Shown here piece by piece: positions 56,660 to 59,343 of a DNA stretch of 64,000 nucleotides. The DNA is taken from assembly GCA_019057385.1 (NCBI GenBank), contig JAHQJS010000008.1:128001-192000 (forward strand), given 5' to 3'. Origin of the DNA: Candidatus Borrarchaeum weybense (GTDB lineage: Archaea; Asgardarchaeota; Sifarchaeia; Borrarchaeales; Borrarchaeaceae). Position 1 is the first letter of the stretch. Each line of letters starts with the position of its first letter. Position numbers and translations under genes: made by a program. The notes below the pieces were generated by a model, which was given only the letters and a program-made list of their open reading frames with translations, did no database searches and had not been told where the DNA came from.

Positions 56660-57619
56660 ATGGTGGAGAGTACTGAATTAACTGAAACTAAATTTACACC
56701 GGGTGTAGCTATTTCTTCTCAAGAATGTATGGAATGCGGTTCAACTGAAATTGTAATGGACTCTATTCGAGGGGAGAGAATTTGTAGTATATGTGGATTA
56801 GTAATTACAGAACATGTGATAGATACTGGTCCTGAATGGAGAGCGTTTACTTCAGATGAACGCAATAAAAGAAGCAGAGTAGGCAGTCCAGTCTCATGCG
56901 TTGTTCCTTCTATGGGACTATCAACTATGATTGGGTGGGAAAATAGAGATATTTATGGCAACAAATTGTCACCAAAAAAACGTGCCCAAATCTATAGATT
57001 GAGAAAATGGCAAATACGAACAAGATCACAAGGTTCTTATGAGCGTAATCTCTCCCACGCTATACGCGAACTAGAAAGACTTTCTAGTCAACTTGGAATT
57101 CACAATGGAGTAAAAGAATCAGCGGCTGTCATCTATCGGCGGGCTATAGAAAAAAAGTTAGTTCGTGGACGTTCAATAGAAGCTATGGTTGCTGCATCTG
57201 TGTATGCAGGTTCACGACTTAGGAAAGTTCCTCGTACCCTGGATGAGATTGCCCAGTGTACACGTGTTAATAAAAAAGAATTAGGTCGTTGCTATCGTTT
57301 AATTCTTCGAGAACTTCATATTTCAATCCCCATAGCCAGTCCAGTTGACTTCATTTCTCGTTTTAGTGAAGAATTAAAAATCTCTGGAAAAACTCAACAA
57401 CGTGCAATAGAAATTCTAAATCAAGCAAAAGAATTTGGAATTACTGCTGGTAAAGATCCAACTGGTCTTGCTGCTGCAGCATTGTATATCTCAAGCATTA
57501 CTGAAGGTGAGAGAAGAACCCAAAGGGAAATTGCAGAAATAGCAAGGATAACTGAAGTTACTGTTCGTAACCGCTACAAGGAAATTGTTAGAGTACTTGG
57601 AATAAAAATAGCTGTCTAG
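56660..57619 (+). CDS. tfb: Transcription initiation factor IIB
   Basis: CMEC...CSIC ribbon, GPEWRAF, RLRKW, GRSIE, GKDP, TEVTVRNRYKE. Confidence 0.97.
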   Translation: MVESTELTETKFTPGVAISSQECMECGSTEIVMDSIRGERICSICGLVITEHVIDTGPEWRAFTSDERNKRSRVGSPVSCVVPSMGLSTMIGWENRDIYGNKLSPKKRAQIYRLRKWQIRTRSQGSYERNLSHAIRELERLSSQLGIHNGVKESAAVIYRRAIEKKLVRGRSIEAMVAASVYAGSRLRKVPRTLDEIAQCTRVNKKELGRCYRLILRELHISIPIASPVDFISRFSEELKISGKTQQRAIEILNQAKEFGITAGKDPTGLAAAALYISSITEGERRTQREIAEIARITEVTVRNRYKEIVRVLGIKIAV

Positions 57620-57656
57620 ATATTATATTAAATGGCATTATCCTTCTTTTTTTTAA

Positions 57657-57957
57657 TTTTATTGGCGGGAAGTCCCCTTGCGCCAGCTGGGGGATGAAAG
57701 CCGCAAGGTTTTTATAGTGTTTTGCACAGAAGAGTTCTGATGAATATCGAGAGGAAAGCAGGGATACAAGACTCTTGATAGGAAGGCAGTATGGTGTGAT
57801 TTTGAAACCTGAGGGTTGCTATCACAGAATGCCAAGTGGACAGGCTATTCTCTTTAGAGGGTAATCTGCGACACACAGCCGAACGTAAAACGAAAGTTTC
57901 CCGCAAGGGTTGGGAGGACTCGCAGGAAGCCCCATCTGAAAGGGTGGGGTAGTTCAC
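57657..57957 (+). mobile_element. 301-bp non-autonomous relative of the 41359-42742 tnpB element with intact omega-RNA
   Basis: TTTAA|ttttattggcgggaagtcccc LE; 57819-57957 aligns to the tnpB 3' end/RE (41359-41504). Confidence 0.9.
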
Positions 57958-59343
57958 TGAACATGTTGATACCATCGTTTATATTCCACTAATGCCCCTA
58001 ATGTTCTAATAGCTCTTTCTGGTAGTGTATGAACTGGAATTTTGTTCCACTCTAAAAATCTTTTATATTTTTCAAATTGCTTAAATGTGCTTCCCAAGCA
58101 GGATATAATAGGTTTTTTACTGCTTTTCATAACTGCAACAAGTGTTTTGATTGTCTGAAACTCGATATTTGGACCACTTGGGATTGTTACGACAAGCACA
58201 GAATCAACTTGTGGGTCGCTTAGAATGAGTTTTGTTACCCATTCATATCTCTCCGTGTCAGCATCCGCTGCTAAATCAACTGGATTTGAAGGGGTACAAT
58301 GTTGAGGTAAACTATGCAATTGTTCAAGCGTTTTACTGCTAAACTCTGCAAGACGTAAATCATTATTTTCAAGAGCATCTGCTGCTAAGACACCATGTCC
58401 ACCACTATTTGTTATTATACCCACATTATTTCCTTTAGGTAATGGTTGAGTTGCAAAGCAATAGCAAATATCAAGGAGTTCTTCTAGATCCTTTGCAGTG
58501 ATTACACCTGTTTGTTTGAACATTGCTTTAAATGATTCTACAGAACCTGCGAGAGACCCAGTATGTGATTTTGAAGCTTTTGCTCCTGCTTCTGTTTTTC
58601 CAACTTTGCAAATAATAACGGGTTTTGCTTTAGTAACCTCTCTTAGTGTCTTGTAAAATCGTCTTCCTTCTTTTACACCCTCAACATACATTCCGATAAC
58701 TTTAGTGGTTGTATCTTGTTTTAAATATCCTAGAAGATCGCTTTCATTTACATCTATGGCATTTCCATAAGAACATGTTTTACTAATTCCTATCCCCCGA
58801 TATGCACACCATTCAAGTAGTGTTACAAGGATTGCTCCAGATTGGGATAACAACGCAATATTTCCTTTTGTTGGATATCCTATTGTCCTTTCACGTGGTA
58901 CAAGAAAACTATTGATTCCAGAATAAGGATCAAATATACCAATACAATTTGGACCAATGATTTGCATTCCATACTTATGAGCAATTTTTGTGATTTCATT
59001 TTCTCTTTCAGTTCCTACTTCATTTCCTGTTTCTCCAAAGCCTCCAGTGACAATTATAATTACTTTAACTCCCTTTTCTCCGCATTCTTGAACAATCTTA
59101 GGAACTTGTTGTGCTGTTAAAGCTATTATTGCAAGATCCACAGATTCAGGAATATCCTTTATTTTGGAATAAACAGGAGTGTTCAAGATTTCATCTGCAT
59201 AAGGATTAATTGGATAAATTGTACCTTTGTATTTTTGGAGAATCATGTTCTCTAGAATTATGTACCCGATTTTTCCTTTATTCCTACTTGCTCCGATTAT
59301 AGCAACATTAAGGGGAGAAAAAAAAACTTCTAATGATATTCAT
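57954..59343 (-). CDS. acdA: ADP-forming acyl-CoA synthetase alpha subunit (frameshift in the first codons)
   Basis: VAIIGAS, YPINP, IGPNCIG, SQSGA, SHTGSLAG, TNSGG, NPVDL; ATG 59343 is one base out of frame. Confidence 0.85.

What the first reader, a model, noticed from the sequence alone, without database searches (positions are those of the whole stretch)
57657..57957. Mini-element omega-RNA matches the resident TnpB element with structure-preserving substitutions
57819-57957 aligns with 41504-41359. Linkers are near identical while hairpins are rewritten but still pair: TATCGGG-tattt-CTCGATA vs TATTCTC-ttta-GAGGGTA; CTCCC-atcgta-GGGAG vs CCC-gcaa-GGG; RE loop GTAA vs GAAA. Both follow TTTAA and share the LE. 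This gives a ready-made testable pair (TnpB 41403-42638, TAM TTTAA, trans guide TGAACATGTTGATACC...). Caveat: the covariation could have arisen in a related parent tnpB element elsewhere in the genome.
Basis: partly seen in the sequence, partly recalled or inferred. Interest (0 to 1): 0.75.

Follow-up and report, generated by a model that had tools for sequence, protein, structure and literature searches.

The report
Guide-RNA-only mini transposon in Asgard archaeon
A 301-bp gene-less derivative of a TnpB transposon that keeps only the transposon ends and the guide-RNA scaffold sits behind a TFB gene in an Asgard (Borr/Sifarchaeia) genome; it is a well-supported example of an already described kind of element, not a new kind.

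Summary
Window 57657-57957 is a 301-bp non-autonomous IS200/IS605 mini-element (M1). Its last ~140 nt align to the right end/omega-RNA region of the tnpB element at 41359-42742 (82.6% identity, E 2e-35). The hairpins are rewritten but still pair, and the linkers are nearly identical. Metagenome contigs from another study join 57656/7 directly to 57958, giving the empty site TTTAA|TGAACATG. This confirms the boundaries, the TAM and a polymorphic insertion.

The substitutions did not arise between M1 and the resident element. M1 belongs to a genus-wide lineage of ~390-bp minis with its own scaffold type. I saw it in all five congeneric genomes and on 18 metagenome contigs, never attached to a tnpB gene. 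M1 is a copy with an extra 90-nt deletion.

The genome holds seven full-length tnpB elements with two other scaffold types, and one tnpA. Covariation across 42 copies supports one fold (96% of cells paired; 14 pairs changed on both sides).

The resident TnpB has a unique C343Y change at a zinc-finger cysteine, so paralogues may be better test partners.

Trans use of the RNA by TnpB is inferred, not shown. Omega-RNA-bearing minis of this type are already described.

The parts
57652..57656 (+). TTTAA transposon-adjacent motif (TAM) 5' of the mini-element. On the minus strand it holds the original TAA stop codon of the downstream convergent CoA-ligase-like gene.
   Evidence: Sequence. TTTAA lies 5' of all 11 family copies in the genome and of most copies in relatives. 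Empty-site contigs confirm it.
57657..57957 (+). Mini-element M1: 301-bp non-autonomous IS200/IS605 derivative (PATE/MITE-like), no ORF of note.
   Evidence: A contig in run X5 skips exactly this stretch (57657->57958, 1-nt ambiguity), while another contig in the same run holds the occupied form. Left and right ends are homologous to the tnpB elements.
57665..57704 (+). Left-end imperfect hairpin (GGCG..TCCCC..GGGGA..CGCC), the presumed TnpA recognition structure.
   Evidence: Consensus fold of 17 minis with a CG<->GC swap at one pair. Conserved in full-length copies.
57709..57717 (+). TATA-box-like TTTTTATAG inside the left end. Inferred archaeal promoter that would drive tnpB in full-length copies and the omega-RNA precursor in minis.
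   Evidence: Nearly invariant TTTATATAG in 17 minis and in the left ends of full-length copies. Promoter function is an inference; no transcription start data.
57746..57779 (+). Hairpin H0 (ATCGAGAG ... CTCTTGAT) in the leader of the mini lineage; origin unknown.
   Evidence: 98.5% of cells paired in 17 minis, with a GC<->AU double change at one pair.
57789..57790 (+). Junction of the ~90-nt internal deletion that distinguishes M1 from all other (~390-bp) members of the mini lineage. It removes one large 5' hairpin.
   Evidence: Alignments of minis. A metatranscriptome contig of a sister copy has 95 extra letters here. The removed hairpin is seen.
57790..57957 (+). Predicted omega-RNA scaffold. 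Helices: Hx (57795-57800 / 57821-57826), P0 (57836-57841 / 57952-57957), H1 (57846-57863), P1 (57866-57871 / 57920-57925), H2 (57900-57909), terminal H3 (57929-57950), which is also the right-end hairpin.
   Evidence: Covariance model R1 scores 168.8 bits, E 3e-44. Structure counts: 96.3% of cells paired versus 34-47% for slid controls, and 14 pairs changed on both sides. MFE fold.
57958..57973 (+). Predicted guide/target (TGAACATGTTGATACC): flanking DNA that follows TTTAA in the empty allele.
   Evidence: Empty-site contigs. No other match with 1 mismatch or fewer in the genome. The 16-nt length is assumed by analogy.
41359..42742 (-). Resident tnpB-only element F1 (1384 bp), scaffold type A. 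TTTAA lies at 42743-42747.
41403..42638 (-). tnpB ORF (411 aa from the ATG). Pfam HTH_OrfB_IS605 + OrfB_IS605 + Cas12f1-like_TNB. Gly at the canonical RuvC-II Glu position with an invariant downstream 'DE'. Unique C343Y in the zinc finger.
41359..41515 (-). F1 omega-RNA scaffold core (type A). It overlaps the last ~37 codons of tnpB and ends at the right end.
   Evidence: R1 scores 158.7 bits. Alignments.

Best explanation
M1 (57657-57957) is a non-autonomous IS200/IS605-family mini-element of a Borr/Sifarchaeial Asgard archaeon. It keeps only three things: the left end (TnpA hairpin plus a TATA-like box), a short structured leader, and the complete omega-RNA scaffold that ends in the right-end hairpin.

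It belongs to an old, genus-wide lineage of ~390-bp minis with its own scaffold variant (type M). M1 is a copy with a further 90-nt deletion.

Proposed mechanism:
1. The single Y1 transposase of the genome (tnpA in element F7, contig C7) moves it as single-stranded DNA and inserts it 3' of TTTAA.
2. The element is transcribed from the left-end promoter through the scaffold into the flank.
3. A TnpB made by one of the full-length paralogues loads this RNA in trans.
4. The complex cuts the empty donor joint TTTAA+TGAACATGTTGATACC.
5. Recombination then restores the element (homing/retention).

Shown: the boundaries, the TAM, the insertion polymorphism, family membership, the conserved fold with covariation, and constraint on stems and linkers in non-coding minis.

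Inferred: the promoter, transcription of M1, TnpB loading, cleavage and homing.

The confidence given is for the whole chain. That it is an omega-RNA-bearing mini IS element I hold at about 0.9. That the RNA is really used in trans by a TnpB I hold at about 0.5.
For: Boundaries and mobility. Contigs of an independent sediment metagenome (X5) skip 57657-57957 precisely. One of them is 98.6% identical on the right flank, and the same run also holds the occupied allele.

Family.
- The genome holds 7 full-length tnpB elements and 4 M-type minis, all after TTTAA and all ending in GTAGTTCAC.
- There is one tnpA in the genome, inside F7.
- M-type right ends occur in all 4 congeners. Every one with fetched flanks lies about 385-395 bp from a left end with no TnpB ORF between. 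The same holds for 18 metagenome contigs.
- One mini (M2) sits at the same site in a congener, so the lineage is old.

RNA fold.
- Across 42 copies, 96.3% of cells pair versus 34-47% for slid controls. 14 pairs change on both sides, and 0 of 500 shuffles reach the observed value.
- Within the 17 non-coding minis, 97.9% of cells pair, and 6 pairs have double changes versus 2.1 expected.
- Mean pairwise identity in minis is 0.92 for stems, 0.90 for linkers and 0.74 for loops.
- M1 folds into the consensus on its own.

Guide. It has no other target in the genome, as expected for a homing guide.

Precedent.
Against: - No direct evidence that M1 is transcribed. The metatranscriptome contigs that match come from other copies of the lineage, include left-end sequence, and could be DNA carry-over.
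- M1 lacks a 90-nt 5' hairpin that every other member keeps, and its H1 has two G-U pairs, so it could be a weakened copy.
- Conservation along the mini is fairly even (0.78-0.92 per segment), which is also what young copies of one master would show.
- The M scaffold differs from all TnpB-linked scaffolds seen, so compatibility with any resident TnpB is untested.
- The terminal hairpin and some G-T tolerant changes could equally reflect single-stranded DNA recognition by TnpA.
Confidence: 0.6

Rival explanations
1. M1 is an inert relic: a decaying internal-deletion copy. Its intact-looking hairpins simply reflect descent from functional ancestors. It is neither transcribed into a working guide nor used by TnpB.
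For: M1 is the only copy seen with the extra 90-nt deletion. Its H1 has two wobble pairs. Conservation is fairly even along the minis. There is no direct RNA evidence.
Against: The insertion is polymorphic between near-identical strains in nature, which points to recent insertion or excision. The scaffold core is complete and scores higher on the family model than the resident tnpB-linked copy (168.8 versus 158.7 bits). Across minis, loops diverge about three times faster than stems and linkers.
Confidence: 0.25
2. The conserved structure in the minis serves transposition only. The hairpins act as single-stranded DNA signals for TnpA, and the RNA has no role.
For: IS200/IS605 transposases recognise subterminal DNA hairpins on the same (top) strand. 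The left-end and terminal right-end hairpins covary. G-T pairs are tolerated in DNA hairpins too.
Against: By established knowledge of IS608 and ISDra2, only the subterminal hairpins and short guide tetra/pentanucleotides are needed by TnpA. Here about 170 nt, including single-stranded linkers, are conserved (linkers 0.90 versus loops 0.74). They are the same linkers as in the tnpB-linked omega-RNA regions. H1, P1, H2 and Hx lie well inside the element.
Confidence: 0.1
3. One reading: M1's scaffold has co-varied specifically with the resident TnpB element F1, and the two form a matched natural pair.
For: They lie 16 kb apart in the same window. F1's type A is the full-length type most similar to M1's right end by BLAST (82.6% versus 75-77% for type B).
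Against: M1's substitutions are shared with minis in four other species and in metagenomes. Its nearest relatives are 393-bp minis at 92% identity. F1 carries C343Y in its zinc finger. F2 and F3 have the same type-A scaffold.
Confidence: 0.05

Closest known systems
PATE-like / standalone omega-RNA elements of IS200/IS605 (Geobacillus stearothermophilus PATE-like elements, Meers et al. 2023; standalone omega-RNAs of OMEGA systems, Altae-Tran et al. 2021/2023)
   Same: Gene-less. Same left and right ends as tnpB-bearing relatives. Carries the omega-RNA scaffold ending at the right end. Needs TnpA and TnpB in trans. Many copies per genome.
   Different: The host is an Asgard archaeon. The mini lineage has its own scaffold variant not seen attached to any tnpB gene. 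It persists across species of a genus. The associated TnpBs have Gly at the canonical RuvC-II glutamate.
ISDra2 / IS608 TnpB-omega-RNA systems (solved: 8EXA, 8H1J)
   Same: TnpB is homologous (phmmer E 1.7e-16 to ISDra2 TnpB). The omega-RNA overlaps the 3' end of tnpB and the right end. The guide is the flanking DNA. A 5-nt TAM lies 5' of the left end.
   Different: The TAM is TTTAA rather than TTGAT or TTAC. The scaffold sequence is unrelated to any Rfam family. The RuvC-II motif is rearranged. In type-B copies the ORF runs to a TAG inside the right end.
RIIr-5-type TnpBs (RuvC-II Glu replaced by Gly, alternative Glu; PMC10691335)
   Same: Invariant Gly in 'IVG' at the canonical position and an invariant 'DE' in the next strand, in 25 of 25 relatives. 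Full DRD-like RuvC-III and a C4 zinc finger.
   Different: Clade membership was not tested by phylogeny. The assignment rests on the published description only.
Archaeal MITEs/PATEs of IS1341-type elements (e.g. Haloquadratum walsbyi, PMC3119063)
   Same: Short non-coding derivatives of tnpB-only elements in archaea.
   Different: Those were described before omega-RNA was known. Not compared at sequence level here.

Membership tests
IS200/IS605 transposon family | Y1 (HUH) TnpA transposase in autonomous members | tested here: met
   One Y1_Tnp gene in the genome (131 bits), inside element F7, which has the same ends.
IS200/IS605 transposon family | Asymmetric ends with subterminal imperfect hairpins, no terminal inverted repeats | tested here: met
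   Left-end and right-end hairpins are conserved and covary.
IS200/IS605 transposon family | Insertion 3' of a specific short motif, without target duplication; seamless empty site | tested here: met
   TTTAA precedes 11 of 11 copies. The empty site reads TTTAA|TGAACATG in metagenome contigs. A second empty site is C6:290742-290747 versus L035.
PATE / MITE-like non-autonomous derivative | No transposase or tnpB gene, ends shared with autonomous relatives, short, multicopy | tested here: met
   301 bp, and no TnpB match between the ends. Four copies in the genome and more than 25 in congeners.
TnpB omega-RNA | Scaffold overlaps the 3' end of tnpB and ends exactly at the transposon right end; the guide is the flank | tested here: met
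   This holds for F1-F7. In M1 the homologous scaffold ends at 57957, the boundary set by the empty site.
TnpB omega-RNA | Conserved secondary structure supported by covariation | tested here: met
TnpB omega-RNA | Expressed as RNA and processed | tested here: inconclusive
   Only contigs of sister copies were found in metatranscriptome libraries. They are not specific to M1 and may be DNA.
TnpB omega-RNA | Bound by TnpB and directs TAM-dependent DNA cleavage | not testable with these tools
   Needs biochemistry.
TnpB (OrfB_IS605) nuclease | HTH + RuvC (OrfB_IS605) + zinc-finger/TNB domains | tested here: met
   Pfam hits are above their cut-offs. Homology to ISDra2 TnpB structures.
TnpB (OrfB_IS605) nuclease | Intact catalytic and zinc-binding residues in the resident copy F1 | tested here: inconclusive
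   RuvC-I D, the 'DE' and RDKN are present. The second Cys of the first CxxC is Tyr in F1 only. The effect is unknown.
Rfam RNA families | Match to a curated family | tested here: not met
   No hit at gathering score in the window. Nothing relevant at E<=1 on four minis.

The most novel reading that the evidence does not exclude
The M-type minis are a self-sustaining lineage of 'guide-only' hyperparasites. They have evolved their own omega-RNA scaffold free of coding constraint (1-nt shorter H1, GNRA-capped 3-bp H2, extra leader hairpin H0). They compete for the TnpB and TnpA of full-length elements across a whole Asgard genus.

A separate point concerns four copies in this genome (F7, F4, F3, M4). 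The first 5-10 nt of the left end have been replaced, in register, by the first nucleotides of the 3' flank. This could be a natural scar of TnpB-triggered recombinational homing, in which the untrimmed 3' tail of the cut empty site is copied into the element.
Probability: 0.25. Interest if true: 0.6.

Novelty: new member of a known kind. Interest (0 to 1): 0.35.

Why it matters
It gives a clean natural data set for the guide RNA of an archaeal TnpB family with a rearranged RuvC-II motif. There are at least three scaffold types plus a coding-free mini type, with compensatory changes that define the fold. The TAM (TTTAA) and target are fixed by a real empty site. This is useful for choosing minimal scaffolds and for testing how far TnpB tolerates scaffold variation in trans. 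It also documents omega-RNA-only elements persisting across species in Asgard archaea. It does not reveal a new mechanism.

Tried and rejected
1. Resident TnpB as nuclease-dead. I first read it this way because it has Gln where paralogues have Glu/Asp after 'IVG'. A wider alignment shows that position is variable (E/D/Q/A/K/N), while the Gly before it and a downstream 'DE' are invariant. This matches the published Glu->Gly rearranged clade. The claim is withdrawn. Only C343Y remains as a unique change.

2. Full-length parent with the M-type scaffold. I searched the own genome, 40 other genomes of the phylum including 4 congeners, and JGI metagenomes by an M-specific pattern. None was found. 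This is not proof of absence.

3. Rfam. No family matches.

4. RNA evidence. Metatranscriptome runs X15 and X16 gave only contigs of sister copies or of the neighbouring TFB gene, with no M1-specific transcript.

5. Alignment A4 used wrong minus-strand coordinates and was discarded. A5 replaces it.

6. Left-end/flank identity. I searched for more cases in congeners and metagenome loci and found none beyond the four in this genome.

7. The sigma-70 promoter scan was not used because the host is an archaeon.

Full report
**What is in the sequence**

Window 57657-57957 (+) lies between two convergent genes. Upstream is a TFIIB/TFB gene (56660-57619, +). Downstream is a CoA-binding/succinyl-CoA-ligase-like gene (57954-59246, -). 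The last ~140 nt of this stretch align to the 3' end of the tnpB element at 41359-42742 (-), at 82.55% over 149 columns, E 1.8e-35. The first ~70 nt align to that element's left end at 75.7%.

The resident ORF (41403-42638) is a TnpB. Pfam finds HTH_OrfB_IS605, OrfB_IS605 and Cas12f1-like_TNB, and phmmer matches ISDra2 TnpB structures at E 1.7e-16.

**Boundaries, TAM and mobility**

I laid contigs of four public runs on 57300-58300. In run X5, a sediment metagenome from a study other than the likely source, one contig joins 57657 to 57958 with a 1-nt ambiguity. A second contig, 98.6% identical on the right flank, joins 57654+TAAA to 57958. A third holds the occupied form with one difference.

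- The empty site is therefore TTTAA|TGAACATG.
- The element is exactly 57657-57957.
- The insertion is polymorphic in nature.

The insertion also replaced the last codon and the stop codon of the downstream gene (...HVH-TAA became ...HVQ-TGA).

**The family in this genome**

The assembly holds the following:

- Seven full-length tnpB elements: F1 in the window; F2-F4 on contig C4; F5-F7 on contig C7.
- Four minis of the same type: M1; M2 on C4; M3 and M4 on C6.

All follow TTTAA and end in GTAGTTCAC. The only Y1 transposase gene in the genome lies inside F7. M1 differs from M2-M4 by a ~90-nt internal deletion.

Relatives named by a protein-based scan place the genus among the Asgard lineages Candidatus Borrarchaeum / Sifarchaeum.

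**Where the "rewritten" hairpins come from**

Aligning the right ends shows discrete scaffold types:

| Type | Copies | H1 | H2 |
|---|---|---|---|
| A | F1-F3 and congeners | TATCGGG/CTCGATA | 5 bp |
| B | F4-F7 | TATCAAG/CTTGATA | long, with internal loop |
| C | congeners | not detailed | not detailed; the terminal hairpin is completely different (CCACGAAT/TTCGTGG) |
| M | all minis | CATCCTC/GAGGATG, 1 nt shorter | 3 bp with a GNRA-like loop |

M-type right ends occur in all four congeners, with more than 25 copies. Every one with fetched flanks lies 385-395 bp from a left end with no TnpB ORF between. The same holds for 18 JGI metagenome contigs found with an M-specific pattern. M2 sits at the same site in a congener.

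M1's closest relatives are 393-bp minis at 92% identity. Modules are partly mosaic:

- A full-length copy in G003 combines a type-B H1 with a short H2.
- A G003 mini combines an M1-like H1 with type-C parts.

So the substitutions are lineage differences, not co-variation between M1 and F1. They are not explained by any full-length parent I could find.

The M scaffold is also out of frame with the TnpB C-terminus: H1 is 1 nt shorter and the type-A stop codon is gone. This fits evolution after coding constraint was lost.

**Is it a structured RNA under constraint?**

A consensus fold has these helices:

- a long-range helix P0 (GTGGAC/GTTCAC)
- H1
- an inner helix P1 (CTGCGA/TCGCAG)
- H2
- the terminal hairpin H3

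On 42 copies, 96.3% of cells pair, against 34-47% when partners are slid by 1-3 columns. Fourteen pairs change on both sides, and no shuffle of 500 reaches the observed values.

Within 17 non-coding minis:

- 97.9% of cells pair.
- Six pairs show double changes, against 2.1 in shuffles.
- Two further helices appear: H0 in the leader, and Hx (TGTGAT/ATCACA).
- Hx has a counterpart in full-length copies (GTGATAG/CTATCAC).

In the scaffold of minis, mean pairwise identity is 0.92 for stems, 0.90 for linkers and 0.74 for loops. The family model scores M1 at 168.8 bits and F1 at 158.7 bits. M1 folds into the consensus on its own. No Rfam family matches.

M1's private deletion removes one large 5' hairpin but leaves Hx-H3 intact.

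**The TnpB partner**

All seven paralogues have open frames. Type-B ORFs run to the TAG inside GGGGTAGTTCAC.

I first thought F1 was catalytically dead because of a Gln after 'IVG'. This was wrong. In 25 relatives that position varies, the preceding Gly is invariant, and a downstream 'DE' is invariant. This fits the published clade in which the RuvC-II Glu is replaced by Gly and another Glu takes over (PMC10691335).

F1's only unique change at an otherwise invariant column is C343Y, a zinc-ligand cysteine. Its effect is unknown. It still makes F2-F7 at least as good a choice for a test.

**Mechanism**

By analogy with ISDra2 and the Geobacillus elements, the proposed route is:

1. The F7 TnpA mobilises M1.
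2. The TATA-like box in the left end (57709-57717; nearly invariant in minis and full-length copies) drives a transcript through the scaffold into the flank.
3. A TnpB from a full-length copy loads that RNA in trans.
4. The complex cuts the vacated site TTTAA+TGAACATGTTGATACC.
5. Recombination restores the element.

The guide has no other near-match in the genome.

The promoter, transcription, TnpB loading and cleavage are all inferred. The only RNA-library contigs come from sister copies and may be DNA.

**Comparison with what is known**

- Altae-Tran et al. state that standalone omega-RNAs function in trans.

This is therefore a new, well-documented member of a known kind. Its particular features are the Asgard host, a mini-specific scaffold lineage, and a rearranged-RuvC TnpB family.

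**Verdict**

- Interest is moderate to low (0.35).

Noticed in passing
G000 C7:194100-195885 (L006), C4:898888-900286 (L003), C4:1153050-1154437 (L002), C6:435741-436139 (L009): In four copies (F7, F4, F3, M4) the first 10, 9, 7 and 5 nt of the left end, directly after TTTAA, are identical to the first nucleotides after the right end. They replace the consensus linker CTTWATCGGC in register. Chance is about 4^-5 or less per copy. One possibility is a recombination scar between empty and occupied alleles. No further case was seen in congeners or metagenome loci.
   Followed up: partly
window 41610-41612 (codon 343 of tnpB, minus strand): The resident TnpB has Tyr in place of the second Cys of the first CxxC of the C4 zinc finger (CWMYG versus CWVCG). 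This is the only F1-unique change at a column invariant in the 24 other relatives.
   Followed up: yes
window 4888-5329: A second gene-less mini-element family (~442 bp). It has the same left-end type after TTTAA (4883-4887), but a different internal sequence and a right end ending GGATGTCAC. There are at least 5 more copies in the genome (C3, C4 x2, C5, C7). The family omega-RNA model hits it only weakly (13.5 bits).
   Followed up: partly
window ~5811-6222: A third ~412-bp repeat family. It ends in a right-end-like hairpin (GCCCCTTCCGTCAGGGAGGGGTAGTTGAC) and has a different left end. There are at least 5 more copies in the genome. The model hit is weak (18.8 bits). Its left boundary was not determined.
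   Followed up: partly
G000 C7:548290-548700 (L005): Element F6 is inserted 13-14 nt downstream of the right end (GAGTAGTTCAC) of a degraded M-type mini, that is, inside that mini's predicted guide region.
   Followed up: partly
G000 C4:783992-784385 (L007) versus G004 (L032) and metagenome L099: Mini M2 has the same flanks in another species of the genus and on a metagenome contig. The insertion is orthologous and predates the species split.
   Followed up: partly
G000 C6:290742-290747 versus G002 locus L035: A type-A tnpB element of a congener sits at a site that is empty in this genome (GATTTAA|GAAAATAC). In the occupied allele the TAM has lost one base (TTTA-T).
   Followed up: partly
F4-F7 (L003-L006): In type-B elements the tnpB reading frame runs through the whole scaffold and stops at the TAG inside the right-end sequence GGGGTAGTTCAC, 5 nt before the transposon boundary.
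   Followed up: yes
whole genome G000: About 16 further TnpB paralogues of a distant family (~30% identity to F2) are present, but only one Y1 tnpA was found.
   Followed up: no
window 57954-57956: The stop codon (TGA) and last codon of the CoA-ligase-like gene are supplied by the right end of M1. The empty allele would end ...HVH-TAA instead of ...HVQ-TGA.
   Followed up: yes
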